Below, piece by piece: positions 1,744 through 40,171 of a stretch of DNA of 64,000 nucleotides; the stretch's first letter is position 1, and each line of letters begins with the position of its first letter. The stretch is taken from contig CAISIK010000223.1 of NCBI GenBank assembly GCA_903885375.1, forward strand, positions 1,443 to 65,442, in the 5' to 3' direction. The notes beneath the pieces were generated by a model. The model was not told the DNA's origin, did no database searches, and saw nothing but the letters and a program-made list of their open reading frames with translations. The translations under genes were made by a program, and so were the position numbers. This stretch comes from an uncultured Pseudomonadota bacterium (GTDB lineage: Bacteria; Myxococcota_A; UBA796; SXON01).

Positions 1744-3569
1744 ACCTCCTCCTCCTCGCGTCTCTCGCCCTGGCGGGCACGTTCAACTCCTCTGAAGGCA
1801 AGGTCGAACTACCGTGGAACGACTTCAACGCGCTCTACACCAAGTACGTGCTCGATCAGCAGAAGCCGCCGGCCTCCCCCCGCGACTGGACCCTCGATCG
1901 GGCGGTCTTCACCGGCACCGTGATCGGCGAGGGCGATGACGCCTACGCCATCGTCAAGCTGAACCTCCGCGGCGCGGTGCACAAGAAGGAAGGGTGGTCC
2001 ACGGTTCCCCTCCTCGGCGCCTCCACGGCGCTCCGCTCCGCCACCATCGGGGGCAAGGACGCCGCCCTCTTCGTGCAGAGCGGGTACTACACCTTCATCA
2101 CCGACAAGCCGGGTCCCTTCGAGGCCAACCTCGAGTTCGCGGTCAAGCTCTTCGAAGCCGACGGCGAGAAGGGCTTCACCCTCCCCTTGCCCTCCGCCGG
2201 CGCCACGGTGGTCGGGCTCGCCGTGAAGAGCGCGGACGACCTGGAGTTCGCCGTCCCCGGCGCCCAGGGCCTCAACGTGACCACCGTCGGCACCGAGCGC
2301 CGCCTCGAGGCCTACGTGCCCTCCATGGCGAGCCTCACCGTGAGCTGGTCGCGCAAGGTCAAGGAGCAGACGGCCGACGAGAAGAAGCGGGAGACCCGCG
2401 TGTACGCCGAAGCGCGCACCCTCATCGGCGTGAGCGAGGGCGTGCTCTCCGGCCGCGCCGACATCGACTACACCGTGCTCCACAACCCCGTGGAGCGCTT
2501 CAAGGTGAGCCTCCCCGCCGACGCCACCGTCCTCGAAGTGCGCGGCAACGGCATCCGCACGTGGTCGCAGGCCAAGGACGGCACCATCGACGTGGAGCTG
2601 AACTACGGGGCCGAGGGCCTCTACCGCCTCGGCATCGACTACGAGCGCACCCTCCAGGCCGGCGCCAACCTGCCGCTCGTGGCGCTGATCGGTGTCACGC
2701 GGGAGACCGACTACGTCGGCGTCGATGCCCGCAGCGCCGTGGAGCTCGTGGCGAAAGCGGCCACCGGGGCCGTCCCCATCGACGTTCGGGAGCTTCCGGC
2801 CGCCCTCACCGGCCAGACCGACTACCCCGTGCTGCTCGCCTACCGGGCGCGCGGCGGCGACGTGAAGATTCCCCTCGACGTGCGCCAGCACCCCGACATG
2901 GACATGCTGGTCACCCTCGTGGACACCGCGGCCGCCGAGACGCTGGTCACCGAGGATGGTCGCCGCATGACGCGGGTGCGCTACGGCGTGCGGAACAACC
3001 GCAAGCAGTTCCTGAACCTCAAGCTGCCCGACGGCGCCGAGGTCTGGAGCGCGTCGGTGGCCGGCCGGGGCGTGAAGGTGTCCCGCGGCGAAAAGGGCGA
3101 CGTGCTGGTGCCGCTGGTGCGCAGCGATGCTTCCGGGGGCGCGCTCACCGCCTTCCTCGTGGAGCTGGTGTACGTGGAGGCGGGCGCCGAGCTCGCCAAC
3201 GGTCGCGGCGCGCTCGAGGTGCACCTCCCCACCGTGGACGCGCCCTCCAGCATCCTCCAGTGGACGGTCTACATCCCCGCCACCGCCACCATCGTCCCGC
3301 GCACCTCGAAGGGCAGCGTCCGCCGCGTGGACTGGTTCTCCGCGGCGCCGGTGCTGCCGGCCGAGGCCGTCGTCACCTCCAACGCGCAGCAGGCCGTGCG
3401 CGCCGAGGTCCAGAACCAGGGTGAAACGGGCGCGCTCGGGCAGGGCGTGGAGCCGGTCGAGGTCCAGCTCCCCCTCTCCGGGAACGCCTACACCTTCGAG
3501 AAGACGCTCGTCCTCGACGAGGGCCTCTGGGTCGGGTTCGACTACAAGCACAAGGTCAAGGTTCGTTAG
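1740..3569 (+). CDS. Hypothetical secreted beta-rich protein
   Basis: ATG 1740 coupled to upstream stop (ATGA), AAGGA RBS, signal peptide MNLLLLASLALAG. Confidence 0.8.
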   Translation: MNLLLLASLALAGTFNSSEGKVELPWNDFNALYTKYVLDQQKPPASPRDWTLDRAVFTGTVIGEGDDAYAIVKLNLRGAVHKKEGWSTVPLLGASTALRSATIGGKDAALFVQSGYYTFITDKPGPFEANLEFAVKLFEADGEKGFTLPLPSAGATVVGLAVKSADDLEFAVPGAQGLNVTTVGTERRLEAYVPSMASLTVSWSRKVKEQTADEKKRETRVYAEARTLIGVSEGVLSGRADIDYTVLHNPVERFKVSLPADATVLEVRGNGIRTWSQAKDGTIDVELNYGAEGLYRLGIDYERTLQAGANLPLVALIGVTRETDYVGVDARSAVELVAKAATGAVPIDVRELPAALTGQTDYPVLLAYRARGGDVKIPLDVRQHPDMDMLVTLVDTAAAETLVTEDGRRMTRVRYGVRNNRKQFLNLKLPDGAEVWSASVAGRGVKVSRGEKGDVLVPLVRSDASGGALTAFLVELVYVEAGAELANGRGALEVHLPTVDAPSSILQWTVYIPATATIVPRTSKGSVRRVDWFSAAPVLPAEAVVTSNAQQAVRAEVQNQGETGALGQGVEPVEVQLPLSGNAYTFEKTLVLDEGLWVGFDYKHKVKVR

Positions 3570-25739: not shown

Positions 25740-28700
25740 TCAGGCCGCGAAGACCGCGGTGACCACGACGCGCCCCGCGTGCATGCCCACCCGCACCCGG
25801 ATCGGCGCCCCGCCGAGGGCGGTGTGGGCCGCGAGGACCTCGCCAGACAGGCGAACGGTGGCCACACCCGCCTCCACGCCCACCACCTCGATCTCGCGGG
25901 GGTTCAGCGCCATGCCGACGCCGAGGGCCTTGAGCACCGCTTCCTTCACGCTCCAGACCACCGTGATGGCCTCGTCGGTGTGCGCCCAGCCACGCTCCGT
26001 CTCGGAGAACCACTCCTCGACGAAGCTCGCGGGCCGGGGCGTGATCGCCTCCATGTCCACGCCGGCGCGGGCCCCCCGAACCGCGAGCGCGAGCGCTTCG
26101 CCGTCGGTGTGGGTGATGCTGACCTCGAGGCGGGGCGGCCCGCCCACCACGATCGGACGGCCACCGGGCTCCCGATCCACCGCCAGCGCGGCGCCCGGCT
26201 CGAGGGCCTCTACGGCCCGCAATGCCGCGAGCTGCCCGGCCACCCGGTCGGCCCGACGCTTCGCCGTGCCCCGGGCCTCCATCTTCTCCCGGTCGCCCGG
26301 CGGAAGCGCCTCCGACTCCGACGACGCCGCGATCGACGCCGAGGGCCAGCCCCCCTCCGGGACCGGGAGACGGTCGCCCGGGGGCAACGGTCCCTTCTCC
26401 ACCATGCGGAACCCGCGGACGCGCATGATCCGGCCTTCGGGGCCGTCCACGTCGATGTCGTAGCCGCCCCCGCGGACATGCACGACGACCTGCAGCGACT
26501 CCCCTTCGACCGCCGAGCGCACGAGCTCCACCGCATCGATGCTCGCCGGCAGGGCCATCACGCCCTCCAGCGCGATGCGGTGCAGGCCGGCCGCCTGGAA
26601 CGCCGACTCGAGCACCAGCGGCTCGGAGATGAGCCCCTCGGCGATGGAACCGTGCTCCACCACGGCCTCCGCGAGGAGGCCCTGCACGGTGACGGCTTCC
26701 GCGGCCCGGAGGACCTGGAACCGCGCCCCATGGAAGAAGCGCCGGTAGATGTCCTTCTGCGACACCCGCTCCTCGGGGAACCAGGCCCCGGGGAGCGCGG
26801 GCAGGAGCGGCATCTCCACGAGCTGCACCCGCGCCTCGAAGTGCCGGGTGACCTGCGTGCGACCGTTCTTGAGCGTGCGCGAGCTGGACAGGGTGCAGCG
26901 CCAGGCACCCTCCTCGTCGGGCTCGGCCGTGACCTCGATGTCGGCCGCTTGATCGCGGTGCAGCTTCAGCGGCGCAGAGAACGTGACATCCTCGAAGCCG
27001 ACGAAGCGGCCGCGCGGATCGCTCGCCAGCGCCGCGCCCACCATCATCTCCAGACCCATGACCCCGGGGAGGACGGGCACGTTGTCGATGGCGTGGTCGA
27101 GGATCCACGGGTCGGTCTCGACGGACATCCGGCGCCGACCGATCGCCCGATCCCCAACGAGCTCCACGCTGTCGAGCAGGGGATGGATGGACGGCGACTG
27201 GAAGTCGCCGAGGCGCCCCGCCACGACGAGCTCCCCGCACACGCCGGAGGCCACGAGATCGCAGAGCAGGCGCGCGCCCGCCTGCGGCGGGAGCAGCTCC
27301 ACACCGCGCGAGGTGAGCAGGCTCTCCATGCCGCCGCGCACCGCCATGCCCACACCGGCCCACGCCGTCCAGGCCAGGTGCAGCGACCGCGGGCGGGCGA
27401 GGCACACCTGCGCCATCGCCTCGTTGGCGGCGCTGTAGTCCACCTGCCCGGCGTTTCCGAAGCGGCCGGCGATGCTCCCCATGCTCACGAAGAACGTGGA
27501 GGCATCGAGGCCCTCGGCGAGCGCGAGCCCGCCTTCGGCCTTGCCGTCGAACACCCGGCGGAACGCGGTTTCGTCCTTGTCGGTCAGGAGCCTCGACTCC
27601 TCGACCCCGGCCCCGTGCACGACGAGGTCGATGCGCGGGTGCTTCATGCGAAGCTCGGCCACCGCGAGCCGGACGGCATCGGGATTGGCGAGGTCCAGCG
27701 CGCGCAACTCCACCAGCGCGCCGAGCGCGATCATGGCCTCCACGTTCTGGCGTGCCTCCTCCGACACCCGGAGAGGCTTCAGCCGGTCCTCGATCATCTT
27801 CGGCGTGACGCGCTTGTTCGTGGCCTCGAGGGCCTGCCGGATGAGCGGACGTTCTTTCTCCTCGTCGAGCGGCAGAAGCCCCGGGAGGGTGCGCGCCACG
27901 AGGACCAGGGTGCACGGCCCACGCCGCGCGAGCTCGAGCGCCACCTGCGCGGTGATGCCGCGGGTGCCGCCCGTCAGGATCACGACCGGGTGTTCGGGCC
28001 AGTGGCCCTCGGTCGGCACGGTTTCGACGGCGAGCGCCGCCACATCGCGCTCGGCCGGACCGATCCAGACCTCGTTCGCGGCATCGCCCTCACCCATCTC
28101 GTCCACGATCGCCCGCGCGGCGTCGAGCTCGGGCCAGTTCGCACGAACGGAGACCACGCGAGCGCGACAACCCTCCCACTCGCGACCGAGCGCCTTGCAG
28201 AGCCCGGCGCGCGCGCCGTTGTCGCGCGCCGCCTTGAGGTCGGCGGGCGGGGTGAGGATGGACAACCACTGCCTCGGCCGACGGCCATCGAGCCGCTGCG
28301 CCTGCGCGAACAGCTCCAGGAGCGGCGCGCCGCAATCCACCACGACGTCGGGGTCCCCTTCGGAACGCCCCCCGGCGTTGCGGATCTCGTCGCGCAGGTG
28401 TTCGCCCAGCTCGCCACCGCCGAGCACCCACACCACCTGGCCCCGGAGGGTGCTCACGGGCAGCTTGACGTGGCTCACCCGCACCACGCGCCGCACCCGG
28501 AAGTCCGGAGGGAGCTGGTGGGGGAGGAGGGTGGGCACGGCCGCTTCGGGCGCCGGAGCGACCGCTTCGGGCACCGCCGCCGGGGCGGCCACGGAGGCCG
28601 CCACCGCCGGAGCGGGCGCCTCGACGGGCTCGGCAGCGCCGGCCTTCGCCGCGATCCGCCCGGCCAGCCAGCCCGCGAGCTTGTCGACCGTGGGGTAGTC

Positions 28701-31700
28701 GGCGAGGCGGAAGCTGTCGTCGCGCTCGAGCGCGTAGGCGTCGCGCACCTCGCCGAAGATCTCGGCCTGCTTCACGGTGTCGATGCCGAGGTCGGCTTCG
28801 AGCTCGTAGTTCGGATCGATCTCCGAGGGCTCGTAGCCCGTGCGCGCGGCCACGACCCCGATGAGTCGGGCGAGCACCTCGGTGTGCCCGGCGTGGGCAG
28901 CCTCGGCGGGCGCGCTGGCGGGCAAGCTGGCGGGAGGTGCAACGGCAGACGGAGTCGGGGTCGGCACGGGAGCCGCCACCGGGGCCGGCGCAGGCGCGGG
29001 CGCAGCGCCGGCAGCCTTGTCGGCCAGCCACCCCGCGAGCTTCGCCACGGTGGGGTAGTCGGCGAGCTTGAAGCTGTCGTCGCGCTCAAGCCCGTAGGCG
29101 TCGCGCACCTCGGCGAAGATCTCCGCCTGCTTCACGGTGTCGATGCCGAGATCGGCCTCCAGCTCGTAGCCGGGATCGATCTCGCCCACGTCGTAGCCGG
29201 TCTTCGCCGCCACCACGGTGATGAGCCGCTGGAGCACTTCCGCGCGGTCCACGCCCGGCGACGCTGCTGCGGGCGCCGGGGCCGCGGCTGCCGGGGCTGG
29301 CGCGGCCGCATCCACGGCCGTGATCGCTCCGGCAGCACGGGAAGCGAGCCATCCGGCGAGCTTCTCGACGGTGGGGTAGTCGGCCAGCTTGAAGCTGTCG
29401 TCGCGTTCCAGCCCGTAGGCATCACGCACTTCGGCAAAGATCTCCGCCTGCTTCACGGTGTCGATGCCGAGATCGGCCTCCAGCTCGTAGCTGGGGTCGA
29501 TCTCCTCACGCGAGTAGCCGGTCTTCTGCGCCACGACGCCGATCAGGCGCTGCAGCACCTCGGCGCCGCTCACGGAACCCTTCGGCGCTGCCGCCGCGGG
29601 CGCGGGAGCCGCCGGAGCGGCCGGAGCCGCCGCCCGCGCCGCGTTCGGATCGGGCACGAACCGGAGCTGACGGTTTTCGAGCGTGGTGCTGCCGGCAGCG
29701 CCGCCGACCCGCGCCAGCCACTGCCCGTACACCGCCGCGTCGCTTACGCGCACATCGCCGTTGGCGACCTTCTTCCAGGCCACCAACGCGAGCTGGCTGC
29801 CGAAGCCGGCGGCGAGCCGGAGGGCGTAGCGGATGTCGTAGTGCCCGCCGGTGCTCAAGGTGAGCTCGCCGAGGTCCGGGTCGCGCTCCTTCAGATTGGG
29901 GATCGGCGGCACCAGCTGGTACTGCAACGACTTGATCGCGACGGTGTCCTCGACGCCGGCGCCCATCGGGTGACCGGTGAACCCCTTGGTGTTGGCGATC
30001 ACGACCTTGGAGGCCGCGGCGCCGAAGGCGTTCGGGAGGCTCGCCATCTCCGCCGCCGCCGAGCCGCCCCGCGCGGGGGTGTAGGTCTCGTGGCTGAGGA
30101 AGACGCAGCTCTCCGCGAAGGTCTGGTGACTGACCCCCGACGCAGCGACCGCACGGTCCACGAGGGCCTTGACCTCGCGCGCGATGTGCGAGGCGTCGAG
30201 GCGGGTGCCGTGGAAGGCCGAGTTCGCGAGGTGCGTCGCGAGCAGCTCAGCGATCGGCACCATGCCGCGCGCGCGCACATCCGGCCCCCGCTCCAGCACC
30301 AGGCCGACCGCGCCCATGCCGAGGATCATCCCGTGACGGCGACGGTCGAACGGCAGCGCCGCGTTCTCGACCTCGGCCGTGGTGGTGGCCGCGCCGGCCG
30401 CCATGAAGCCCGCGCCGATCCACTGGAGCAGGTTCTCGCTCGTGACATCGTCGGCGCCAACCACGATCACGCGCTCGCACCGCCCGAGCCGGAGCCAATC
30501 CTCGGCCACGGCGATGGCCTGCGTGGTGCTCGCGCAAGCGGCGTTGACCGCCGTGTTCGGGCCGCGCGCGCCGAGGAACTGCGCGAGCTGGCTGTGCCCC
30601 ATCGAGAGCACCTGGAACAGGAACCGACGGTCGAAGTGGCCTTCGCCATCCCCGCCGTTTTCGCCCAGCTTGCCGACGAGCTGGTCGTAGCCGGGGAAGG
30701 CGCTCGCGAAAACGATGCCCGTGCCGTCGCGGAACGCCTCCGGCAGGGCCCAGCCCGTGGCCACGTCCTTGCCCGTGGTGGTGTGCCGGTAGGTGCGCAC
30801 CAGCGGGATGCCGGCGTCGCGCAAGGCCTCTATCGCCGCGGCGAACGCGAGCTGCGTGGTGATGTCGAGGCTCCGGGCGAGGCCCGGGTCTACGCCGTAG
30901 TCGGCGATGAGGTCGAAGTGCGACTTGCGGCCGGCGAGGCGGATCACCTGATCGCGGCTCTCCACGGGCAGGAAGCTGCCCTCGCCCGTTTGCGGGTCCT
31001 TCGTGAGCCGCATGAGCTTCTTGTCGAGGAAGCGGTCGAGGTTCGTCTCGTCCACCGAACCGATGCGGTTCTCGCCGCGGAGCATCCGCTGGATGCCGTC
31101 CACCTCGAAGACCTCGGTGCCACCGGGCAACCCGAGCGAGGCGCCCGAACAGACGATCTCGGCGCGGGCCACCGGCGCGGGGCGTTCGGCCGGTGCGGGA
31201 GCCGCCGCCGGGGCCGCGGGACGGACCGGCGCCGGGGGCGGCGCGGCGGCGACCACGACGGGTGCCTGGGCGGCTTGGAACGCCGTCCAAGCGGCGCCGA
31301 GGAAGCCCTGGAGCGCCGGGAGCATGGCGGTGGCAAAGGTGGACCCATCGACCCCGCGGAGGTCCTGACCGGCGATCTCCTTCAGGAAACGCGCGGCGCT
31401 GTCGGCGGGGAGGGTCGGGGCGCCGACCGTGGGCGCGGCCACGGGCGCCGGGAGGGCCCCGAGCTCGCTCGTGCCTCGCCGCTCGGGCATGGTGGAGGGG
31501 CGGGTGAACCCGCTGCGGCGGGCGGCGTAGTCCACCAGCTGCCGGAGGGTGCGGTGCTGACCCATCCGGAAGTCCGGGTCCGGGTCGAGGCGCAGGGTTT
31601 CGCGCACGGTGCCGATGACGTCGGCCATCTTGACGGTGTCGATGCCGAGGTCGGCCTCGACGTCGTGGTCGAGGGAGAGGTCCTCCACCGCGATGCCCGT

Positions 31701-34700
31701 CCGCCGGGCCACCACGTCGAGGATGGTGCGGGCGATCTCGGGCGTGCCCACGCGCTCCGCTTCGGCGGCCACCGAGGGCGTGGAGTTGCGCGCGGCGAGC
31801 AGCGGCGTGGTGCTCCGACGCGGGCCGGACGTGCCGAAGATGTCGGTGCTCCCCTCGGGGCGCGCGGCGATCGGGAAGCCGAGCACGAAGAGCTCGGCGA
31901 GGGCGTCGAGGAAGGAGCTGGCCCCGCCGCGCTTCGGCTGGTTGGTGTACAGCGCCCGGTGGGGGCGGTGCTTGAGGATCTGGACGACGAAGCCGGAGAG
32001 CGCGCGCTTGGGACCGCACTCCACGAAGATGCGGGCGCCGTCGGCGTACATGCGCTCGACCTGGGCGATCCACTCCACCGGAGCCGCCACCTGCAGGGCG
32101 AGGTTCTCGATGATCTGCTCGCGGGCACCGGGCCCCGTGGGGTAGTACCGGCTGTCCACGTTGGTGGTGACCCGGCGGCGCGGCTCGCGGATGTCGAGCT
32201 GCTGGAGCACGCGCTTGAGCGGCTCCGAGGCGGGCGCCACGATCCGACTGTGGAAGGCGTGGCTGACCGGCAGCGGGTACACCGTGATGCCGCGGCTCTT
32301 GAAGAGCTCGCTCGCGGCCTCCACCGCATCCGACTCGCCCGCGATCACGGTTTGTGTGGGGCAGTTCTTGTTGGCCGGCACCACGTAGCCGGGCACCTCG
32401 GCGAGCACTTCCATGACCACGTCGGTGCTGGCGGCGATTCCCGCCATCTTGCCCACGTCATCGAGCTTTACGGCGGCCATCTCCCGGCCACGCGCGCTCA
32501 CGGCCACGAGGGCCTCGCGGAAGGTCAAGATGCCGGCGGCAACGAGCGCGCCGTACTCGCCGAGGCTGTGCCCGGCCACCATGTCGGGCCGCACGCCGTA
32601 GGCGCTCATCAGGCGGAGGATGGCCACATCGACCGTGAGCGTGGCGGGCTGGGAGATCGCCGTGTCGCGGAGGCGCTCGAACTGCTCCTCTTCGCTCAGC
32701 GCGTCGTCGCGCCGGATGAGCGAGGTCAAGGACCGGCCCAGGAGCGGCGTCATCACCTCGTCGGCTTCGGCGAAGGTGGCGGCCACGACCGGGAACTGCT
32801 CCGCGAGATCGAGGCCCATGCCGATGTATTGGCTGCCCTGCCCGGTGAAGAGGAAGGCGAGCTCGCCGTCGCACGGCACGTCTTCGAGCGCGATCCCGCG
32901 CTGGCGAACAAGGTCGTAGCCCTTGCCCTTGCGGACGGCCGACACGACCTTCTCGAGCTGGCCCACCAGCTCTTCCTGGTTCTGGGCATGCGCCGACACC
33001 CGCAACGGGGCATCGCCTTCGTAGGGAGCGGCCTCGCCGCGCTCGGCAAGGGCCGTGCAGCGCTCCACCATCTCCTCGGGCGTGTCCGCCGAGAGCGCCC
33101 ACAACCCCGTCGGGACCGGCACCACGCTGGGGGCACGCTCCACCTGGTTGACCGGCGCCTGCGGCTTCCGGCCCGCCGGAGCGGCCACCGCAACGGGAGC
33201 GGCCGGCGGCGGGTTGGCGGGGGCGAGCACCGAGTGCGAGCGGGGGGGCCAGCTCGCGGCCGGCGCATCGGGGGAAGAAGCCCGCGCCATGCCGGGGCGG
33301 AAGCCCTCGAGCACCACGTGGAAATTCGTGCCGCCAAAACCGAAGGAGCTGATGCCCGCGAAGCGCGGACCGTTGCCCTCCCAGGCCTCCGTGATGGTCT
33401 GCACCTTGAGCGGCACCCGCCCGAGGTCGATGTCCGGACGCGGCTTCTTGTAGTTGATGCTCGGCGGGAAGACGCCATGGTGGAGCGCGAGGCACACCTT
33501 CAACGCACTCGCGGCGCCCGCGGCGCTCTTGAGGTGGCCGATGTTCGACTTCACCGAGCCGATGCGCGAGGGCCGGTTGCGCCGCCCGCTGCCCACGAGT
33601 TCGGAGAGCGCGTCGACTTCGACCTTGTCGCCCACGACCGTACTCGTGCCGTGACACTCGAACAGGTCCACGTCGGCCGGGTCGATCCCGGCGTTCTCGT
33701 AGGCGCGGTGCAGCGCCCGCTTCTGCCCTTCGGGATTGGGCGCAGTGATCCCCTTGCCCTTGCCGTCGGAGCTGCCGCCGAACCCGCGGAGCACGGCGTA
33801 CACACGGTCGCCATCGCGGAGCGCATCGCTGAGCCGGCGCAGCACCAGGATGCCGACGCCCTCGCCCATGACGAAGCCGTTGGCGTCGGCATCGAAGGGG
33901 CGGCTCCCGTCGGGCGACAGCGCCCCGATCTTGGAGAACTTGGCATAGGTGGCCACGCCCATCGAGCGGTCGGCGCCGCCGGTGACCGCCATGTCGAAGT
34001 CACCATCCTGCAGGCCCTTCACGGCCGCCTGCATCGCCGCCATCGAGCCCGCGCACGCCGCATCCGTCGTGAAGTTGGGGCCGCCGAGGTTGAGCGCGTT
34101 GGTGATGCGGCCGGCCACCACGTTGGCCAACTCGCCGGGCATGGAGTCTTCGGTGATGGGCGGCAGGTTCCGCTTGAGCTGTTCTTCGTAGGCCGCGAGG
34201 ATGGCGGCCCGATCGTCGGTGGGCAGGGCCGCGAACCCCTTCACCTCGGTGAGCGCCTTCCGGATGGCCGGGAACATCACGCGGATCGTGTACTCGTCCG
34301 TGATCTCGCCACCCATCGAGTTGCCGAGGATCGTGGCCACGCGGGCGCGGTCGTAGTCGCGCGATTCGCCGTAGCCGGCGTCCTCGAGCGCATCGGCCGC
34401 GGCTTCGAGCGCCATCTGCTGGATGGGGTCGACGAGGCGTGCCACCGAAGGCGGGATGCGGAAACGTTTCGGGTTGAAGACGAAGTCGGTGACGAAGCCG
34501 CCGATGCGGGCGTACGTCTTGTCGGGGACGGACTTGTCGGCATCCCAGTAGAGCGCCGGATCCCAGCGCTCGCGGGGCACCTCGATGATGCCATCGAAGC
34601 CGGCCACGAGGTTCTCCCAGAGGCGGGAGACAGACGGGCTCCGGGGGAGACGGCAGCCGAGGCCGATGACGGCGATCGGCTCGTTGCGCTCGAACGGAAC

Positions 34701-35477
34701 GTGCGCTTCGTCGACCGCCGGCGCGGGCGGCGCCGAGGCCGGAGCCGACACCTCCACGGCCCGAGGCCGCGCCCCGTAGGCGCGGACCGCCGCGCCGACG
34801 TCGGCGTGGCGGCGGTAAAGGCCGGCGGCATGAAGCGCTCCCGCGCCGATGGGCCAAGCCGAAGCGTAGGCATCGCCGCTCGTGTACACGCCCGCGGCCA
34901 CCTCCTCCACCGCTTCGCCGGCCGCCACGCGACGCCAGGCCGGGCTGGCGAGGCTCGCAACGAGGTTCTGATCGCCGAAGCGACGGAAATCGGCGGCCGA
35001 GAGCCGGGCCAGACGCCCGTGGAGGCCCTCCGCGAGCGGGAGGTGGGCGAGGAGCACATCGCTGAGGACCAGCCCCACACCGGCCGGCAGGGGCACTTCG
35101 GGGGGGTGAGGCCAGTCGACGAGCACCGCCACGCCGGCGGGCATCTCGGCAAGCAGCTCGCGAACGTCATGACGCCCAGCACGACCGCCGCTCCCGAGCC
35201 CGCGCAACATCACGCCCGCGAAGCCGGCGGGCGGGGCGCCCGCGGTGGTCCGCTCGAGCCATGTGGGGCGGCTGGGATCCGGCTTGCCTTCCTGAACCAC
35301 CAACGGCCCCGTGCCGGGCGCGTGGGTGGCGGAGCGCGCTCGTACCCAGGCGCCCGGCGGCACCTCGGCGCTGTCGGCCGTACAATCGATCAGGACCTCG
35401 AGCCCCGCGGCCGCGAACGCAGCGGCGAGCTCCGCGAAGGCGGCAGGGAGGACGACGAGGCGATTCGGCACGGCCAT
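25740..35477 (-). CDS. PfaA-like iterative type I polyketide/fatty-acid synthase: degenerate N-terminal domain-KS-AT-ACP-KS-ACP-ACP-ACP-KR-DH-PPTase
   Basis: KS1 DAACAGS/ECHGTST/NIGHLK; AT FTGQGSQ/GHSLG/HAFHS; ACPs EADLGIDTVK x4; KS2 NAACAST/SHETYTP/TGHPMGA; KR TGGTRGIT/YSAAN; DH DHAIDNVPVLPG; Sfp-type PPTase SITH/GVDME/WSVKEAVLKALG. Start ATG 35477 or GTG 35537. Confidence 0.93.
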   Translation of the reverse strand: MAVPNRLVVLPAAFAELAAAFAAAGLEVLIDCTADSAEVPPGAWVRARSATHAPGTGPLVVQEGKPDPSRPTWLERTTAGAPPAGFAGVMLRGLGSGGRAGRHDVRELLAEMPAGVAVLVDWPHPPEVPLPAGVGLVLSDVLLAHLPLAEGLHGRLARLSAADFRRFGDQNLVASLASPAWRRVAAGEAVEEVAAGVYTSGDAYASAWPIGAGALHAAGLYRRHADVGAAVRAYGARPRAVEVSAPASAPPAPAVDEAHVPFERNEPIAVIGLGCRLPRSPSVSRLWENLVAGFDGIIEVPRERWDPALYWDADKSVPDKTYARIGGFVTDFVFNPKRFRIPPSVARLVDPIQQMALEAAADALEDAGYGESRDYDRARVATILGNSMGGEITDEYTIRVMFPAIRKALTEVKGFAALPTDDRAAILAAYEEQLKRNLPPITEDSMPGELANVVAGRITNALNLGGPNFTTDAACAGSMAAMQAAVKGLQDGDFDMAVTGGADRSMGVATYAKFSKIGALSPDGSRPFDADANGFVMGEGVGILVLRRLSDALRDGDRVYAVLRGFGGSSDGKGKGITAPNPEGQKRALHRAYENAGIDPADVDLFECHGTSTVVGDKVEVDALSELVGSGRRNRPSRIGSVKSNIGHLKSAAGAASALKVCLALHHGVFPPSINYKKPRPDIDLGRVPLKVQTITEAWEGNGPRFAGISSFGFGGTNFHVVLEGFRPGMARASSPDAPAASWPPRSHSVLAPANPPPAAPVAVAAPAGRKPQAPVNQVERAPSVVPVPTGLWALSADTPEEMVERCTALAERGEAAPYEGDAPLRVSAHAQNQEELVGQLEKVVSAVRKGKGYDLVRQRGIALEDVPCDGELAFLFTGQGSQYIGMGLDLAEQFPVVAATFAEADEVMTPLLGRSLTSLIRRDDALSEEEQFERLRDTAISQPATLTVDVAILRLMSAYGVRPDMVAGHSLGEYGALVAAGILTFREALVAVSARGREMAAVKLDDVGKMAGIAASTDVVMEVLAEVPGYVVPANKNCPTQTVIAGESDAVEAASELFKSRGITVYPLPVSHAFHSRIVAPASEPLKRVLQQLDIREPRRRVTTNVDSRYYPTGPGAREQIIENLALQVAAPVEWIAQVERMYADGARIFVECGPKRALSGFVVQILKHRPHRALYTNQPKRGGASSFLDALAELFVLGFPIAARPEGSTDIFGTSGPRRSTTPLLAARNSTPSVAAEAERVGTPEIARTILDVVARRTGIAVEDLSLDHDVEADLGIDTVKMADVIGTVRETLRLDPDPDFRMGQHRTLRQLVDYAARRSGFTRPSTMPERRGTSELGALPAPVAAPTVGAPTLPADSAARFLKEIAGQDLRGVDGSTFATAMLPALQGFLGAAWTAFQAAQAPVVVAAAPPPAPVRPAAPAAAPAPAERPAPVARAEIVCSGASLGLPGGTEVFEVDGIQRMLRGENRIGSVDETNLDRFLDKKLMRLTKDPQTGEGSFLPVESRDQVIRLAGRKSHFDLIADYGVDPGLARSLDITTQLAFAAAIEALRDAGIPLVRTYRHTTTGKDVATGWALPEAFRDGTGIVFASAFPGYDQLVGKLGENGGDGEGHFDRRFLFQVLSMGHSQLAQFLGARGPNTAVNAACASTTQAIAVAEDWLRLGRCERVIVVGADDVTSENLLQWIGAGFMAAGAATTTAEVENAALPFDRRRHGMILGMGAVGLVLERGPDVRARGMVPIAELLATHLANSAFHGTRLDASHIAREVKALVDRAVAASGVSHQTFAESCVFLSHETYTPARGGSAAAEMASLPNAFGAAASKVVIANTKGFTGHPMGAGVEDTVAIKSLQYQLVPPIPNLKERDPDLGELTLSTGGHYDIRYALRLAAGFGSQLALVAWKKVANGDVRVSDAAVYGQWLARVGGAAGSTTLENRQLRFVPDPNAARAAAPAAPAAPAPAAAAPKGSVSGAEVLQRLIGVVAQKTGYSREEIDPSYELEADLGIDTVKQAEIFAEVRDAYGLERDDSFKLADYPTVEKLAGWLASRAAGAITAVDAAAPAPAAAAPAPAAASPGVDRAEVLQRLITVVAAKTGYDVGEIDPGYELEADLGIDTVKQAEIFAEVRDAYGLERDDSFKLADYPTVAKLAGWLADKAAGAAPAPAPAPVAAPVPTPTPSAVAPPASLPASAPAEAAHAGHTEVLARLIGVVAARTGYEPSEIDPNYELEADLGIDTVKQAEIFGEVRDAYALERDDSFRLADYPTVDKLAGWLAGRIAAKAGAAEPVEAPAPAVAASVAAPAAVPEAVAPAPEAAVPTLLPHQLPPDFRVRRVVRVSHVKLPVSTLRGQVVWVLGGGELGEHLRDEIRNAGGRSEGDPDVVVDCGAPLLELFAQAQRLDGRRPRQWLSILTPPADLKAARDNGARAGLCKALGREWEGCRARVVSVRANWPELDAARAIVDEMGEGDAANEVWIGPAERDVAALAVETVPTEGHWPEHPVVILTGGTRGITAQVALELARRGPCTLVLVARTLPGLLPLDEEKERPLIRQALEATNKRVTPKMIEDRLKPLRVSEEARQNVEAMIALGALVELRALDLANPDAVRLAVAELRMKHPRIDLVVHGAGVEESRLLTDKDETAFRRVFDGKAEGGLALAEGLDASTFFVSMGSIAGRFGNAGQVDYSAANEAMAQVCLARPRSLHLAWTAWAGVGMAVRGGMESLLTSRGVELLPPQAGARLLCDLVASGVCGELVVAGRLGDFQSPSIHPLLDSVELVGDRAIGRRRMSVETDPWILDHAIDNVPVLPGVMGLEMMVGAALASDPRGRFVGFEDVTFSAPLKLHRDQAADIEVTAEPDEEGAWRCTLSSSRTLKNGRTQVTRHFEARVQLVEMPLLPALPGAWFPEERVSQKDIYRRFFHGARFQVLRAAEAVTVQGLLAEAVVEHGSIAEGLISEPLVLESAFQAAGLHRIALEGVMALPASIDAVELVRSAVEGESLQVVVHVRGGGYDIDVDGPEGRIMRVRGFRMVEKGPLPPGDRLPVPEGGWPSASIAASSESEALPPGDREKMEARGTAKRRADRVAGQLAALRAVEALEPGAALAVDREPGGRPIVVGGPPRLEVSITHTDGEALALAVRGARAGVDMEAITPRPASFVEEWFSETERGWAHTDEAITVVWSVKEAVLKALGVGMALNPREIEVVGVEAGVATVRLSGEVLAAHTALGGAPIRVRVGMHAGRVVVTAVFAA
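28660..29570 (-). repeat. Three tandem near-identical ACP-encoding units separated by Ala/Pro-rich linkers
   Basis: Repeated DNA (e.g. gcctgcttcacggtgtcgatgccgag) near 28765, 29125 and 29446. Confidence 0.9.
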
Positions 35478-35605
35478 GGGGAACGCTCCGCGCGCGCCCC
35501 TATCCGCGATCGCGACAGGGAGCGAATGAGCGGCCATTCAGCCACGCTGCCGGGGGCGCGGCGTCGGCAGCGGGTTTGCGGTTAGGCCTTCCCCCGGAGG
35601 ATCCC

Positions 35606-36326: not shown

Positions 36327-37370
36327 ATGTCGCACCCCTCCCGCATCCTGGTCGTTGACGACGAGCCCCTGAACCTGCAGGTGTTCGAATACAACTTCGC
36401 GGAGGAGTTCCCGCTGCTGTACGCGTCCGGAGCCGAGGAGGCGCTGGCGCTCCTGGAGGCCCACCCGGTCGCGGTGATCATCGCCGACCACCGGATGCCC
36501 GGGATGCTCGGGCTCGATCTGCTCGCCCTCGTCGCGCGGCGTTTTCCCGCGGTCGTGCGGATGCTCCTCACCGCCCACACCGACGTTCCGCTCCTGCTCG
36601 ATGCGGTCAATCGAGGTGACCTCTTCCGGTACGTGCCCAAGCCCTGGGAGCCCGACGGGATGCGCCAGGACATGCAGCTCGCCCTGTCGCGGCACGGCGA
36701 GGAAATCCAACGGCAGCGCCTCCTCCGCCACGCCGCCGAGCACGTGCACACCACCGGCGCGCTCACGGCCTCGTTGGCGAACTCGCTCGGCGAGGTCGAT
36801 GCGCTCCTCACCGAGGCCGCCAAGGGCGGCGAAGGCGCCGCCAACGCGGCGCTCGTGCGGGCCGCCCTGCGCGTGCGGACCCTGCACGAAGGCGCCCTCC
36901 GGGAGTCCCGGCGGCAGGCGAAGCCGCAGCGCGAGTCGGTGACCGAGCTCGTGAGCGAGGCCGTGAACGCCGTCGGGCTGTGGAATGCCGAGAGCGGCGT
37001 GGCCCTGGAGCTGATCGACGAGGCAAGCGCCGCACAGGTGATGGTGCCCGCCATGCGGCTGGTGGAGGCAGTCACCGCGCTGCTGCGAAACGCCACCGAG
37101 GCCGCCTCGGCCGGCCCCGCCCCCCGCTCGGTGCAGGTGCGGGTGGTCCGCGCGGCGTCCGATCGCGTTCGCATCGTGGTATCCGACTCCGGCGGAGGCT
37201 TTTCGCCAGAGGGTCGCCCGGAGCTCTTCGGCTCCACGCGTGGCCGCGCGGGCTTCGGCCTCGCCATCGCCGGGGCCCTCGCCAACGGTGCAGGCGGCCA
37301 GCTCGACCTTTCTGGAGCGCAGAGCGGGCGGGTAGCCCTCACGCTTCCGCTCGCGCCGCCGGGTCGCTGA
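36327..37370 (+). CDS. Response regulator receiver + degenerate histidine-kinase (HATPase) protein
   Basis: ILVVDDE, IIADHRMP, LTAH, VPKPW; N box LLRNATEA, DSGGG, GFGLAIA; H-box region GALTASLANSL has no His. Confidence 0.85.
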   Translation: MSHPSRILVVDDEPLNLQVFEYNFAEEFPLLYASGAEEALALLEAHPVAVIIADHRMPGMLGLDLLALVARRFPAVVRMLLTAHTDVPLLLDAVNRGDLFRYVPKPWEPDGMRQDMQLALSRHGEEIQRQRLLRHAAEHVHTTGALTASLANSLGEVDALLTEAAKGGEGAANAALVRAALRVRTLHEGALRESRRQAKPQRESVTELVSEAVNAVGLWNAESGVALELIDEASAAQVMVPAMRLVEAVTALLRNATEAASAGPAPRSVQVRVVRAASDRVRIVVSDSGGGFSPEGRPELFGSTRGRAGFGLAIAGALANGAGGQLDLSGAQSGRVALTLPLAPPGR

Positions 37371-40171
37371 TGCAGGGGTTCCCGAAGCGCACCAACCCCC
37401 GGCGGCGCACCATCCTTCGGCTGGAAGCAGGCCGGCATGATCGTGAGCGCGTGCTGAACCTCTCCGCGAACGGCATGTTCGTGGCGGGAGCGAAGGTTGC
37501 CGATGCGGCGCGCGGAGCCCTGTTCATTCCCGGCGAGGACCGTCCCCTCGAGCTGAAGTTTCGTTCGGTCTTCCAGCGGGCCGATGGGCTCGGCGTGCAG
37601 TTCGACACCGAAGACCGCCGCACCCGCAACGAGCTCCTCGCCTACGTCACCTTCCAGCACGAGCAAGCGCGACTCCAGGCCATCGAGACCCGACTGCACG
37701 GCCGGCCGATGAACCTCAAGCCGTTGAACGAAGCGGAGGGCACCCGCGTGGCGCTCCGCCCGATGGAGCGCACGGGCCGCGCGGTGGAGGTGTATCGACG
37801 CATCGACGGCTCGCCGATCCGCGCCTCCCTCACCGCGGTAGACCAGGCCAACGCCCGCCTCTCGATGCTGCTCGACCAGAGCAGCGAGTCCGCCGACGAG
37901 TTCGACCAGGTCTTCCTCGTCCTCCGCCAGGGCGACGTGTCCTTCCTCGCCGACACCGTCGTGGAGACCGCCCGGGGCCGCGTGGCCTCGCTGATGCTCC
38001 CCGAGCGCATCTTCTTCCCCGAACGCCGGATGCTGGAGCGGGAAGCGAGCGGCACCGGGGTGATGCGGGTGGAGATCGACGGCCGAACGCGGGTGATGGG
38101 CGTGCTGCAGTCCGACCCGAACGGCTTCTCGGTCCAGGTCTGGGCGGTCGACGCCGATGCCTTCACGGCCGGGCGCGAGATCACCGGCTGCATCCTGCAG
38201 GAAGGCGACCGAAGCGGGCCGGTGGGTCCCGTGATCGTGGCTTGGCGCGCGGATGCGCCCCAGGAAGGGCGACTGCGCCTGGGGTTGCGGCGGGTCCAGG
38301 CACGCGTGTCGGTACCGCAGCAACGGCTGGCGTTTTCCGAACAGTCCACGACCCTCTTCCAGCGCGCCTGGGGAGGCGTGCAGCACGTGGTGGGCGGGTG
38401 GCTCGCCCGCACCGGCGTCGTGGCGGGTCCGGGCCTGCCGCAGGTCTGGGAAGTTCCCGACGAGGCAGGGCGCCCGGTGGTGGCCCTCGTCAACGCCACG
38501 TTCGACCTGGCGCATCCGCCCGAGGGCAACCTCAACGTCGTGCTGGTCCCTCCGCCCTTCGCGCGCCGCAAGGAGACCCTCGGCCCCGTCGCCCTCTCGC
38601 TCGTGGAGACCTTCCGCGCCGCCGGCGAGCACGCGGTGATCGTGCGGTGGGATGGCATCAACCATCTCGGTGAGAGCTGGAAGGACGAGGCGAGCCGGCA
38701 GCCCGGCCGGGAACTCATCCATTGGACCCTGGGGCAGACCGTTCGGGACCTCGCCAACGTGCACCAACGGGTTCGGGAACGCTTCGCCGGTCGCACGCTC
38801 CGGACCGCGATCGTGTCGTTCTCCATGTCGGCCGTGGCGGCCCGCCGCTACCTTTCCGGGGGCGTGCCGGACGTCCACTACTGGCTCGCGCCCATGGGCG
38901 CGCCCGACCCGCGCGACATCATCCGGAACTCCAGCGGTGGCGTCGACTGGGTCGGCATGCGCAAACGGGGCGCGCAGCTCGGCGTGAACCCCATCCAGGG
39001 GCACCTGCTCGACTGCGACCGGGGTTGCGACGAGATGCTGGGGAGCCGGATCGCCGAGCTGGAGGATGCGCGGCGGGAGATGGCCCTCATCAGCCAGCCG
39101 GTCACCTGGTTCTGCGGCCAGCACGACTACTGGGTGAATCCGCTGCGCGTGGAGGACATCCTCGGGGTACCGGCGCCCGGCACCCGGGAGCTCATCCGCG
39201 TGCCCACCGGCCACTTCGTCCGCCAGAGCGGCGAGGCCATGGAGACCTTCCGCCTCCTTGCGAGCAAGGTGGCCGGCACCTTGCTCGGCCGCCCCGTGAC
39301 CGCCGTCCTCCCCGCCTCGCACGCCTTCACCCGTGCGGCAGAATGGGAGCGGGGGCGGCGCCAGACCGAAGCGTTCGACGACCAGCGGTACTGGAGCGAC
39401 TACCTGCGCGGCACCACCCGCAATCCCCTCGGTTTCGACGTGCTCGCCCTCACGGACGAGTACGAGGAGCTGATGAACGAGCAGGTGGACCAGCTCGGCA
39501 TCCAGTCCGGCGAGCGCGTGCTCGACGCCGGCTGCGGAACCGGAAACGCGCTCGCGGCCATCGTCCGCCGCTGGGGGCACGGGGCGCCCGGCATCCAGAT
39601 CGACGCCATCGACTTCGTGCCCCACGCGCTCGAAACCGCGCGCGCAAAAGCTGCGTCCGCGGCTGCCGAGGTTGGACTCCCGACGTTGGAGGCGCGCTTC
39701 CACGTTTGCGACCTCCGCCTCCCGGCCGACAACTCCGTCCTGCCTTTCGGCGACTCCGCGTTCGACGTGGTGCTCGTCAGCCTCGTCCTCCCCTACCTGC
39801 CAGAGCCGGCGGCGCTCCTGCGCGAGCTCAATCGTGTGCTGCGCCCGGGCGGGCGCCTGGTGGCCAGCACCCTCCGGCCGGATTGCGACATGAGCGGGCC
39901 GCTCAAGCGCCTCAAGGAGAAGATCGAACGCGGCGACGATCAGGTGAAAGAAGGCTGGCGGGCGCGCCAGCTGCTGGTGGCCGTGCAGGACTACGTGAAC
40001 GCGGCAGCCGGGCTCGTGGAGCAAGAGGCCGACGGCCGGTTCCAGTTCTATGAACGCGAGGCGTTCGAGGGCCTCCTCCGCAGCGCCGGCTTCCGCACCG
40101 AGTCCACGCAAGCCACCTTCGGCACCCCGCCCCAGGGTCTGGTGACCCTCGCACGAAAGCCGAATGGATAG
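37370..40171 (+). CDS. Multidomain PilZ / LuxD-like acyl-thioesterase (alpha/beta hydrolase) / class I SAM methyltransferase fusion
   Basis: PilZ RTNPRR...NLSANG; hydrolase PFARRKE, RWDGINHLGES, SFSMSA, GQHDYWV, TGH; MTase VLDAGCGTG, LPFGDSAFD, RVLRPGG; TGATG coupling. Confidence 0.82.
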   Translation: MQGFPKRTNPRRRTILRLEAGRHDRERVLNLSANGMFVAGAKVADAARGALFIPGEDRPLELKFRSVFQRADGLGVQFDTEDRRTRNELLAYVTFQHEQARLQAIETRLHGRPMNLKPLNEAEGTRVALRPMERTGRAVEVYRRIDGSPIRASLTAVDQANARLSMLLDQSSESADEFDQVFLVLRQGDVSFLADTVVETARGRVASLMLPERIFFPERRMLEREASGTGVMRVEIDGRTRVMGVLQSDPNGFSVQVWAVDADAFTAGREITGCILQEGDRSGPVGPVIVAWRADAPQEGRLRLGLRRVQARVSVPQQRLAFSEQSTTLFQRAWGGVQHVVGGWLARTGVVAGPGLPQVWEVPDEAGRPVVALVNATFDLAHPPEGNLNVVLVPPPFARRKETLGPVALSLVETFRAAGEHAVIVRWDGINHLGESWKDEASRQPGRELIHWTLGQTVRDLANVHQRVRERFAGRTLRTAIVSFSMSAVAARRYLSGGVPDVHYWLAPMGAPDPRDIIRNSSGGVDWVGMRKRGAQLGVNPIQGHLLDCDRGCDEMLGSRIAELEDARREMALISQPVTWFCGQHDYWVNPLRVEDILGVPAPGTRELIRVPTGHFVRQSGEAMETFRLLASKVAGTLLGRPVTAVLPASHAFTRAAEWERGRRQTEAFDDQRYWSDYLRGTTRNPLGFDVLALTDEYEELMNEQVDQLGIQSGERVLDAGCGTGNALAAIVRRWGHGAPGIQIDAIDFVPHALETARAKAASAAAEVGLPTLEARFHVCDLRLPADNSVLPFGDSAFDVVLVSLVLPYLPEPAALLRELNRVLRPGGRLVASTLRPDCDMSGPLKRLKEKIERGDDQVKEGWRARQLLVAVQDYVNAAAGLVEQEADGRFQFYEREAFEGLLRSAGFRTESTQATFGTPPQGLVTLARKPNG

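What the first reader, a model, noticed from the sequence alone, without database searches (positions are those of the whole stretch)
28660..31740. All four PKS carrier domains have Thr in place of the phosphopantetheine-accepting Ser
Seen: each ACP reads EADLGID-T-VK, with ACC codons at 31635-31637, 29457-29459, 29136-29138 and 28776-28778, including the diverged first ACP (VEADLGIDTVKMAD). Established: PfaA-type ACPs carry LGID-S-I, and 4'-phosphopantetheine is attached to that Ser. Inference: the KS, AT, KR and PPTase motifs are intact and the diverged copy shares the change, so decay is unlikely. The fused C-terminal PPTase may be specialised for Thr phosphopantetheinylation, giving an orthogonal carrier/PPTase pair insulated from host PPTases.
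Basis: partly seen in the sequence, partly recalled or inferred. Interest (0 to 1): 0.88.

Follow-up and report, generated by a model that had tools for sequence, protein, structure and literature searches.

The report
Carrier domains with threonine, not serine
A giant fatty-acid/polyketide-type synthase, and nearly all of its many relatives in bacteria and archaea, carry threonine where every textbook carrier domain has the serine that holds the phosphopantetheine arm, and each comes with its own arm-attaching enzyme.

Summary
The 3265-aa ORF at window 25740-35537 (-) has four PP-binding domains. Each reads EADLGID-T-VK, with ACC at the stated codons (T1301, T2027, T2134, T2254).

It is not decay and not specific to this gene. 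Among 150 representatives chosen by the internal second ketosynthase (KS2), not by the ACP, 327 of 357 ACP domains have Thr and 20 have Ser. In two other homologue sets the counts are 533 of 535 and 397 of 402. All four Thr codons are used, and Ser is one base change away.

The family spans many bacterial phyla and MAGs labelled archaeal. By architecture and genus it matches the uncharacterised 'Type R secondary lipid synthase' of Shulse & Allen 2011. The words threonine and serine do not occur in that paper's main text.

A related Sfp-type PPTase is fused or lies downstream in 29 of 30 loci with enough flank. A docking model puts the D37-T38-V39 segment against the catalytic Glu (0.86; best control 0.00).

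Rare all-Ser relatives keep the same PPTase type, and no PPTase residue tracks Ser versus Thr. So the enzyme probably accepts both residues and is not Thr-exclusive. Insulation from host PPTases is untested.

The same genome also holds a canonical LGIDSIK (Ser) Pfa-like synthase and a separate PPTase. Ten literature searches found no natural Thr acceptor.

The parts
25740..35537 (-). Whole synthase ORF, 3265 aa plus stop: FabK-like N-domain, KS, AT, ACP1, KS2, ACP2-4, KR, DH, PPTase
34683..35537 (-). N-terminal domain (res 1-285), no Pfam match; predicted TIM-barrel-like fold nearest FabK enoyl-ACP reductase
   Evidence: Pfam none. ESM atlas lead to the NMO family, 0.83-0.84. AF2 pLDDT 86. Foldseek best hit FabK 5gvj, E 7.9e-5, TM 0.51.
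33297..34682 (-). KS1 (res 286-747)
   Evidence: PF00109, PF02801 and PF16197
31971..32855 (-). Acyltransferase (res 895-1189), GHSLGE
   Evidence: PF00698, 158 bits
31503..31751 (-). ACP1 (res 1263-1345), VEADLGIDTVKMAD; Thr1301 codon ACC at 31635-31637
29703..31250 (-). KS2 (res 1430-1945), a divergent second ketosynthase with Cys-His-His intact
   Evidence: Weak Pfam hits only. Cys 213 of 213, His 212 of 213 and His 211 of 213 in KS2-like rows. Family size 581 representative clusters at E<=1e-30.
29325..29573 (-). ACP2 (res 1989-2071); Thr2027 codon ACC at 29457-29459
29004..29252 (-). ACP3 (res 2096-2178); Thr2134 codon ACC at 29136-29138
28644..28892 (-). ACP4 (res 2216-2298); Thr2254 codon ACC at 28776-28778
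27360..27983 (-). Ketoreductase (res 2519-2726)
   Evidence: PF08659, 94.9 bits
26883..27185 (-). PKS dehydratase N-terminal part (res 2785-2885)
   Evidence: PF21089, 56.5 bits
25743..26447 (-). C-terminal fused Sfp-type PPTase (res 3031-3265); GVDME and WSVKEAVLK
   Evidence: PF01648, 47.4 bits. Invariant R64, G129, D131, E133, E151, K168, E169 and K173 in 44 rows. Docking with ACP2.

Best explanation
The four domains are working acyl carrier domains, and their 4'-phosphopantetheine acceptor is threonine (T1301, T2027, T2134, T2254). Thr is the ancestral, selected state of a large PfaA-like family built as KS-AT-(ACP)-KS2-ACPn-KR-DH. By architecture and genus this family matches Shulse & Allen's uncharacterised 'Type R' secondary lipid synthase. 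Every adequately sampled member comes with its own Sfp-type PPTase: fused at the C-terminus as here, encoded right after the DH, or lying after a multidomain acetyl-CoA carboxylase gene. That PPTase docks helix II of the ACP in the canonical way. It would transfer Ppant from CoA to the Thr hydroxyl using the usual Asp/Glu-Mg and Glu base (inferred). It most likely accepts both Thr and Ser. The synthase then runs as a self-priming iterative megasynthase, probably with a FabK-like enoyl reductase at its N-terminus. Shown here: the sequence facts, the conservation, the synteny and the docking model. Inferred: that Thr is actually phosphopantetheinylated, and by the cis enzyme. Why Thr is preferred is open. 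Possibilities are protection from host AcpS-type priming, from ACP phosphodiesterase or from beta-elimination.
For: (1) The Thr sits on the motif-Ser column of solved ACPs. It is the only hydroxyl residue in the invariant D-T-V-K block. Invariant ACP columns are T17, G18, E31, D33, L34, G35, D37, T38, V39, K40 and A42 in 45 rows. T17 belongs to the KTGY motif, which is also present in the Ser-type ACPs of the same genome.
(2) No Ser-type carrier exists in the protein, although KS, AT, KS2, KR and DH are intact.
(3) Conservation: 533 Thr and 2 Ser of 535 ACPs in 121 proteins. In 128 of 150 KS2-selected representatives, 327 Thr, 20 Ser, 5 gaps and 5 other of 357. In 120 Chloroflexi relatives, 397 Thr, 0 Ser and 5 gaps of 402. 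Codons in the loci are ACG 116, ACC 102, ACA 7 and ACT 6, against Ser AGC 2 and TCC 1.
(4) Ser and Thr swap at exactly this column, in near-identical proteins (P0012/P0014) and in whole proteins (P0186, P0231, P0227), as expected if both serve as acceptor.
(5) PPTase synteny: 29 of 30 loci with at least 9.5 kb downstream (13 fused, 16 separate), 45 of 50 with at least 6 kb, and 52 of 61 with at least 3.5 kb. Catalytic residues are invariant.
(6) Docking of PPTase, ACP2, CoA and Mg scored 0.86 with best of 3 controls 0.00. That mark was reached by 58 of 80 solved complexes and 2 of 110 mismatched pairs. The runs agree in at least 98% of contacts and the partner pLDDT is at least 87. The interface holds ACP residues 37-39 and PPTase E133, W165 and E169.
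(7) The gene is kept intact in relatives: 35 of 41 genomes searched, G000 included.
(8) The same genome uses Ser in all its other carrier domains found, so this is not a recoding or assembly artefact.
Against: There is no biochemical precedent. Ten full-text searches found no natural Thr acceptor. E. coli ACP S36T is described as unmodifiable and non-functional (PMC3340395). The docking pass may come from the model's memory of solved PPTase-carrier complexes, and it does not test chemistry on a secondary alcohol. The loci set was fished with a pattern containing EADLGIDT, so it is biased toward Thr. The PPTase tree is the quick search only; the careful search did not finish. Loci without a detected PPTase: 9 of 61 with at least 3.5 kb downstream, 5 of 50 with at least 6 kb, and 1 of 30 with at least 9.5 kb (L012, which has only a partial hit). 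No expression or proteomic data were examined.
Confidence: 0.65

Rival explanations
1. Strict orthogonal pair. The cis PPTase is specialised for Thr, and host PPTases (AcpS and Sfp types) cannot prime these ACPs, so the synthase is fully insulated.
For: A dedicated PPTase is always fused or syntenic. The genome's other PPTase is a different Sfp-type enzyme that scores only 2.2e-8 against the fused-PPTase HMM, against 1e-20 to 1e-34 for the in-cluster ones. It lies about 8 kb from a Ser-type Pfa-like synthase. E. coli AcpS does not modify ACP S36T (PMC3340395). Ser is one mutation away yet rare.
Against: All-Ser members (P0186, P0231, P0227), one mixed S-T-S member (P0233) and members with only ACP1 as Ser (STT: P0014, P0068) keep the same PPTase type. 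P0012 and P0014 have PPTases identical at 217 of 236 positions. No PPTase interface position separates Ser-type from its nearest Thr-type sisters. Canonical pfa clusters also often carry their own PPTase (Shulse & Allen, passages read), so synteny alone does not show specialisation.
Confidence: 0.25
2. The Thr is not modified. The domains are carrier-dead scaffolds, or Ppant sits on another residue.
For: No precedent for Thr priming was found in the searches listed above. A few family ACPs have Q, D, G or P at the site (5 of 357), so dead copies do occur.
Against: No other Ser is conserved in the domain. All carriers of the protein would be dead while KS, AT, KS2, KR, DH and a PPTase are kept under selection over many phyla. 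The Ser/Thr-only alternation at this column argues that a hydroxyl is needed.
Confidence: 0.07
3. Different chemistry on Thr: direct O-acyl tethering, or a different prosthetic group such as a dephospho-CoA derivative as in citrate lyase and malonate decarboxylase ACPs (recalled).
For: Nothing direct. It is only not excluded by sequence.
Against: The partner enzyme is an ordinary Sfp-type PPTase with the CoA- and Mg-binding residues invariant. No triphosphoribosyl-dephospho-CoA genes were seen among the ORFs of the window region 19430-43922 scanned against Pfam.
Confidence: 0.03

Closest known systems
'Type R' secondary lipid synthase gene cluster (Shulse & Allen 2011, PLoS One 6:e20146; PMC3098273, passages read)
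   Same: A pfaA homologue built KS-MAT-'CLF'-ACP(3-6)-KR, followed by a PPTase gene, with an acetyl-CoA carboxylase gene in between in Koribacter. It is reported in Acidobacteria, Chloroflexi (Roseiflexus) and Elusimicrobia, with the product unknown. My architecture B loci match this. For example L077 reads ACAD, PKS, multidomain ACC, PPTase. A Roseiflexus sp. protein (P0279) has four DTVKQAE ACPs.
   Different: The window's form adds a FabK-like N-domain, an extra ACP between AT and KS2, and a fused PPTase. The 'CLF' keeps Cys-His-His, so it is a true KS. The paper's main text contains neither 'threonine' nor 'serine' (0 occurrences). Its supplements could not be opened. I did not test the exact strains listed in the paper.
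PfaA of bacterial PUFA synthases (NCBIfam TIGR02813)
   Same: KS-AT-tandem ACP-KR-DH order. The ACP helix-II motif is LEADLGID-x-[IV]K. The best NCBIfam hit is PfaA at 898.5 bits.
   Different: The score is below the curated cut-off of 1010.1. There is an extra KS2, Thr instead of Ser, TVKQAE instead of SIKRVE, and no pfaB/C/D neighbours.
Enediyne PKSE (SgcE/CalE8 type) - recalled, not tested here
   Same: An iterative KS-AT-ACP-KR-DH synthase ending in a fused PPTase that self-primes.
   Different: PKSE has a single ACP with Ser and no second KS, ER-like N-domain or tandem ACPs. No sequence comparison was run.
Fungal FAS alpha-subunit C-terminal PPTase (PDB 7bc4, 2was)
   Same: These are the closest solved sequences to the window's PPTase domain (E 1.9e-5 and 2.7e-4). 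They share the GVD.E and WS.KEAV.KALG motifs, and the PPTase is fused to its megasynthase.
   Different: The fungal ACP acceptor is Ser (recalled). The window's domain has both halves of an Sfp-type enzyme.
E. coli AcpP S36T mutant
   Same: The same Ser-to-Thr change at the acceptor.
   Different: There it abolishes modification and function (PMC3340395, passages read). Here Thr is the conserved natural state.

Membership tests
PP-binding carrier domain (Pfam PF00550) | Profile match above the gathering score | tested here: met
   103.3 bits against a cut-off of 20.8, in 4 stretches
PP-binding carrier domain (Pfam PF00550) | Ser at the start of helix II as the Ppant acceptor (PROSITE-type motif, recalled) | tested here: not met
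   Thr in 4 of 4 domains, aligned to the motif-Ser (D-S) column of solved ACPs
PP-binding carrier domain (Pfam PF00550) | Actually carries 4'-phosphopantetheine | not testable with these tools
   Needs mass spectrometry
PfaA (TIGR02813) | Score at or above the curated cut-off | tested here: not met
   898.5 bits against 1010.1
PfaA (TIGR02813) | pfaB/pfaC/pfaD partners in the cluster | tested here: not met
   Flanks encode GSDH, a response regulator/kinase and a PilZ-methyltransferase
Type R secondary lipid synthase (Shulse & Allen 2011) | KS-MAT-second KS ('CLF')-ACP(3-6)-KR in one protein | tested here: met
   The window's copy has three tandem ACPs plus one extra ACP and further domains.
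Type R secondary lipid synthase (Shulse & Allen 2011) | Associated PPTase downstream | tested here: met
   Fused here; fused or downstream in 29 of 30 loci
Type R secondary lipid synthase (Shulse & Allen 2011) | Groups with the named Type R strains in the KS tree | tested here: inconclusive
   A Roseiflexus sp. protein is in the KS2-defined family with Thr ACPs. The paper's strains and its tree were not reproduced.
Sfp-type PPTase (PF01648) | Profile match, the Mg/CoA residues (G-x-D-x-E; W..KE..K) and an N-terminal pseudo-half | tested here: met
   47.4 bits against 25. D131, E133, E169, K173, R64 and H113 are conserved. PF17837 is not detected in this copy, but it is listed among the precomputed Pfam domains of relatives (P0003, P0015) and was detected in P0186.
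Enediyne PKSE | KS-AT-single ACP-KR-DH-PPTase, about 1900 aa (recalled) | tested here: not met
   3265 aa, two KS and four ACPs. It shares only the fused-PPTase logic.

The most novel reading that the evidence does not exclude
O-(4'-phosphopantetheinyl)-threonine is a natural, widespread modification. It would be installed by a dedicated PPTase clade on a family of more than 500 synthase clusters in bacteria and in MAGs labelled archaeal. Thr would be selected because it makes these carriers invisible to the cell's housekeeping AcpS/AcpH machinery. That would give a ready-made orthogonal carrier/PPTase pair.
Probability: 0.3. Interest if true: 0.9.

Novelty: new variant of a known kind. Interest (0 to 1): 0.8.

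Why it matters
The Ppant-accepting serine is treated as invariant in carrier proteins. It is built into motif definitions, annotation rules and genome-mining tools, and mutating it to Thr is used as a 'dead ACP' control.

A large, ancient family that keeps Thr at this site under selection means one of two things. Either PPTases can use a secondary alcohol in nature, which would be a new post-translational modification to add to the list. Or this family works in a way not yet understood.

Practical consequences follow. Annotation pipelines may flag these carriers as inactive. An S/T-tolerant or Thr-preferring PPTase with its cognate ACP would be a useful labelling and pathway-insulation tool. 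The finding also gives a concrete handle on the product-unknown Type R synthases, which are conserved in whole lineages (23 of 24 genomes of this family).

Tried and rejected
Decay or pseudogene: rejected. The frame is intact here and in relatives, and Thr is kept through synonymous codon turnover.

Recoding or assembly artefact: rejected. Four different Thr codons are used across many phyla. The same genome writes Ser in its other carriers, including LGIDSIK tandem ACPs.

Co-variation of PPTase residues with Ser versus Thr. Positions 146, 171 and 183 first looked different in the 4 Ser-type rows. The signal vanished when those rows were compared with their nearest Thr-type sisters, so I dropped it.

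Thr tied to the fused PPTase: rejected. 47 of 121 homologues lack the fusion and still have Thr.

Neighbourhood as a pfa operon: rejected. The long minus-strand ORFs beside the gene have no Pfam hits, and the plus-strand genes are unrelated.

Literature. Ten searches found nothing on a Thr acceptor or on the DTV motif. Passages read in PMC5811116, PMC11744666 and PMC4035055 were irrelevant. Subscription journals and all supplements were not searchable, so prior mention cannot be excluded.

Full report
WHAT IS THERE. Window 25740-35537 (-) is one 3265-aa ORF. Pfam and NCBIfam give this order:
- an N-terminal stretch of about 285 aa with no family match;
- KS (286-747);
- AT (895-1189);
- ACP1 (1263-1345);
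- a divergent second ketosynthase, KS2 (about 1430-1945);
- three tandem ACPs (1989-2298);
- KR (2519-2726);
- DH (from 2785);
- a C-terminal PPTase (3031-3265).

The best NCBIfam model is PfaA (TIGR02813) at 898.5 bits, below its cut-off of 1010.1. The flanks encode a glucose/sorbosone dehydrogenase, response-regulator/kinase proteins and a PilZ-methyltransferase. No pfaB/C/D is present.

THE OBSERVATION. All four carrier domains read EADLGID-T-VK.

IS IT DECAY OR LINEAGE NOISE? No.
(i) A search with residues 1250-2320 returned 4254 hits at E<=1e-3 among 8000 scored candidates. In the 120 listed plus the query, an ACP HMM found 535 domains: 533 Thr and 2 Ser. Both Ser are in ACP1, in P0014 and P0068.
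(ii) To avoid selecting on the ACP itself, I searched 1.84 billion representative proteins with KS2 alone. That gave 9345 proteins at E<=1e-3, 2988 at <=1e-10 and 581 at <=1e-30. Of the best 150, 128 contain ACPs, with 357 domains: 327 Thr, 20 Ser, 5 truncated, 2 Gln and 1 each of Asp, Gly and Pro.
(iii) 120 Chloroflexi relatives picked by the KS2 region of P0054 have 402 domains: 397 Thr, 0 Ser and 5 truncated.
(iv) In 78 genome loci the Thr codon is ACG 116, ACC 102, ACA 7 and ACT 6. The three Ser are AGC, AGC and TCC, each one base away from ACC. This set was fished with a pattern containing EADLGIDT, so it is biased toward Thr.
(v) KS2 matches an open frame in 11 of 11 other same-genus genomes, 23 of 24 same-family genomes and 35 of 41 genomes searched overall, G000 included.

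The ACP alignment has T17, G18, E31, D33, L34, G35, D37, T38, V39, K40 and A42 invariant in 45 rows. Thr is therefore under purifying selection across Myxococcota, Bradymonadia, Bdellovibrionota, Acidobacteriota, Actinomycetota, Chloroflexota, Binatia and Gemmatimonadota. It is also present on contigs of MAGs labelled Thermoplasmatota and Methanobacteriota.

INTERNAL CONTROL. The same MAG (6.0 Mb, 224 contigs, 90% complete) has 13 PP-binding matches. Besides the window's own, all those I read have Ser:
- AcpP (DSL);
- two PKS/NRPS-type carriers;
- three tandem ACPs at the end of contig C101 reading LEADLGIDSIKRVEIL, the classical PfaA motif, followed by a KR-DH ORF.

About 8 kb downstream on the same strand lies the genome's only other PF01648 match. 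It is a 232-aa Sfp-type PPTase (4PPT_N + ACPS). So one cell holds a Ser-type and a Thr-type Pfa-like synthase, each near or fused to a PPTase.

THE PPTase. The fused domain has the Sfp-type residues. R64, G129, D131, E133, E151, K168, E169 and K173 are invariant, and H113 and W165 nearly so, in 44 aligned sequences. The nearest solved sequences are the PPTase domains of fungal FAS alpha (7bc4 at E 1.9e-5; 2was).

An HMM of the fused domains finds a related PPTase on the synthase strand in these fractions of loci:

| Flank downstream of the last ACP | Loci with a related PPTase |
|---|---|
| at least 9.5 kb | 29 of 30 (13 fused, 16 separate) |
| at least 6 kb | 45 of 50 |
| at least 3.5 kb | 52 of 61 |

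The one exception in the first row, L012, has a partial hit at 3.5e-14.

The separate genes sit in one of two places. Some lie directly after the DH, about 2.8-3.1 kb past the last ACP. Others lie about 8.3-8.6 kb away. In L077 the intervening gene is an 1864-aa multidomain acetyl-CoA carboxylase, and an acyl-CoA dehydrogenase, ETF-alpha and an Fe-S/CCG protein lie upstream. The genome's other PPTase scores only 2.2e-8 against the same HMM.

DOCKING. I ran PPTase (alignment A2), ACP2 (A3), CoA and Mg. The score was 0.86 (runs 0.86, 0.87, 0.86), and the best of 3 controls was 0.00. That mark was reached by 58 of 80 solved complexes and 2 of 110 mismatched pairs. The runs agree in at least 98% of contacts and the partner pLDDT is at least 87. 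The interface lists ACP residues 31-35, 37-39 and 41-43 onward, and PPTase residues 133, 165, 169 and 178-184. Low-error pairs include E169-V39 and W165-V39. This is the canonical carrier-PPTase pose. Similar complexes are solved (recalled), so the pass shows likeness and not chemistry.

IS THE PPTase THR-SPECIFIC? The evidence says no. The KS2-selected set holds all-Ser members with the same architecture and a fused PPTase: P0186, P0231 and P0227. It also holds P0233, whose three ACPs read S-T-S.

On a quick ML tree of 118 fused PPTase domains, these members nest inside Thr-type clades at 3 or more places. P0227+P0231 form one group. P0233 is sister to P0193 (support 99). P0186 is sister to P0150 (support 97) (the careful search did not finish).

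P0014 (ACP1 Ser) and P0012 (ACP1 Thr) have PPTase domains identical at 217 of 236 positions. Three interface positions at first looked Ser-type-specific. They do not hold against the nearest Thr-type sisters.

The simplest reading is a PPTase that takes either hydroxyl, with Thr ancestral and favoured in the carriers for a reason still unknown.

WHAT FAMILY. Shulse & Allen 2011 (PMC3098273; passages read) defined a 'Type R' secondary lipid synthase. It is built KS-MAT-CLF-ACP(3-6)-KR plus a downstream PPTase, with an ACC gene in between in Koribacter. It was found in Koribacter, Solibacter, Elusimicrobium and Roseiflexus, and its product is unknown.

My architecture B matches this (P0054, P0046 and P0050: KS-AT-KS2-ACP5/6-KR-DH; L077). 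An NCBI-named Roseiflexus sp. protein (P0279) has four ADLGVDTVKQAETF ACPs. The paper's main text contains the words 'threonine' and 'serine' zero times.

Two corrections follow. KS2 keeps Cys in 213 of 213, His in 212 of 213 and His in 211 of 213 KS2-like rows, so it is a ketosynthase and not a chain-length factor. The window's form (architecture A) adds ACP1, a fused PPTase and an N-terminal domain.

THE N-DOMAIN. It has no Pfam match. The ESM atlas leads to NMO-family clusters at 0.83-0.84, below the level at which that tool is reliable. An AF2 model from 17 sequences has pLDDT 86 and pTM 0.80. Its best PDB matches are FabK enoyl-ACP reductases (5gvj at E 7.9e-5, TM 0.51; 9pl0; 5gvh; 2z6i; 7l00). 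It is probably an enoyl-reductase-like TIM barrel. FMN-site residues were not checked.

If it is active, the protein would be a self-contained, self-priming ER-KS-AT-ACP-KS-ACP3-KR-DH-PPTase synthase. No thioesterase or reductase release domain was found.

PRECEDENT. Ten full-text searches found no report of a natural Thr acceptor, of Thr phosphopantetheinylation, or of the DTV motif. [quoted passage not shown] The library lacks most subscription journals, so I put about 15-20% on the trait having been noted somewhere.

VERDICT. It is a family-wide, selected trait and not a quirk of this gene. The most likely mechanism is Thr-linked phosphopantetheine installed by the dedicated PPTase (0.65). 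Strict orthogonality is possible but unproven (0.25). A carrier-dead domain or other chemistry is unlikely. I rate it a new variant of a known kind, of high interest, and testable within days by mass spectrometry.

Noticed in passing
window 34683-35537 (-): The N-terminal 285 aa of the synthase has no Pfam match. It models confidently (pLDDT 86) as a fold nearest FabK enoyl-ACP reductase (Foldseek E 7.9e-5, TM about 0.5). A related N-terminal region was found in 73 of the 121 proteins of the first set (jackhmmer). It may be a built-in enoyl reductase.
   Followed up: partly
window 29703-31250 (-): The internal second KS, called 'CLF' in the 2011 Type R description, keeps the Cys-His-His triad in essentially all 213 KS2-like sequences. 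Two active ketosynthases in one iterative synthase remains unexplained.
   Followed up: partly
G000:C101 (L094 16792-19934, -; PPTase at L094 10750-11439, -): A second Pfa-like synthase in the same genome is cut by the contig end. It has three identical-looking tandem ACPs with the canonical LGIDSIK Ser motif, then a separate KR-DH ORF. An Sfp-type PPTase lies about 8 kb downstream with unrelated genes between.
   Followed up: partly
L077 97-19722 (+); similar spacing in L020, L028, L035, L039, L040, L043, L046, L048, L055, L057, L059, L062, L068, L071, L076: The architecture B cluster reads Fe-S/CCG protein, ETF-alpha, acyl-CoA dehydrogenase, KS-AT-KS2-ACPn-KR-DH synthase, 1864-aa single-chain acetyl-CoA carboxylase (BC-BCCP-central-CT), PPTase. 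The ACAD/ETF pair may supply the enoyl reduction that the FabK-like domain supplies in the window's form. Only L077 was annotated.
   Followed up: partly
L022, L026, L033, L038, L042, L049, L075 (Thermoplasmatota MAGs); L065 (Methanobacteriota MAG): Full-length Thr-ACP synthases with a fused PPTase sit on contigs of MAGs labelled archaeal (for example L022 at 3025 aa and L042 at 3258 aa). I did not check whether the contigs are truly archaeal or binning contamination.
   Followed up: no
P0134, P0144, P0150, P0158, P0185: Single ACP copies in some relatives carry Gln, Gly, Asp or Pro at the acceptor column, with a degraded motif. They look like dead repeats inside otherwise Thr-type tandem arrays.
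   Followed up: no
window 36980-40171 (+): A 1063-aa ORF combines a weak PilZ match (E 5e-4, below the cut-off) with a C-terminal class I methyltransferase domain. It sits next to response-regulator/histidine-kinase genes that are divergent from the synthase.
   Followed up: no
G000, whole genome: Only two PF01648 matches were found and no AcpS-sized one. In this 90%-complete MAG the C101 Sfp-type enzyme may be the housekeeping PPTase. Absence is not shown.
   Followed up: no
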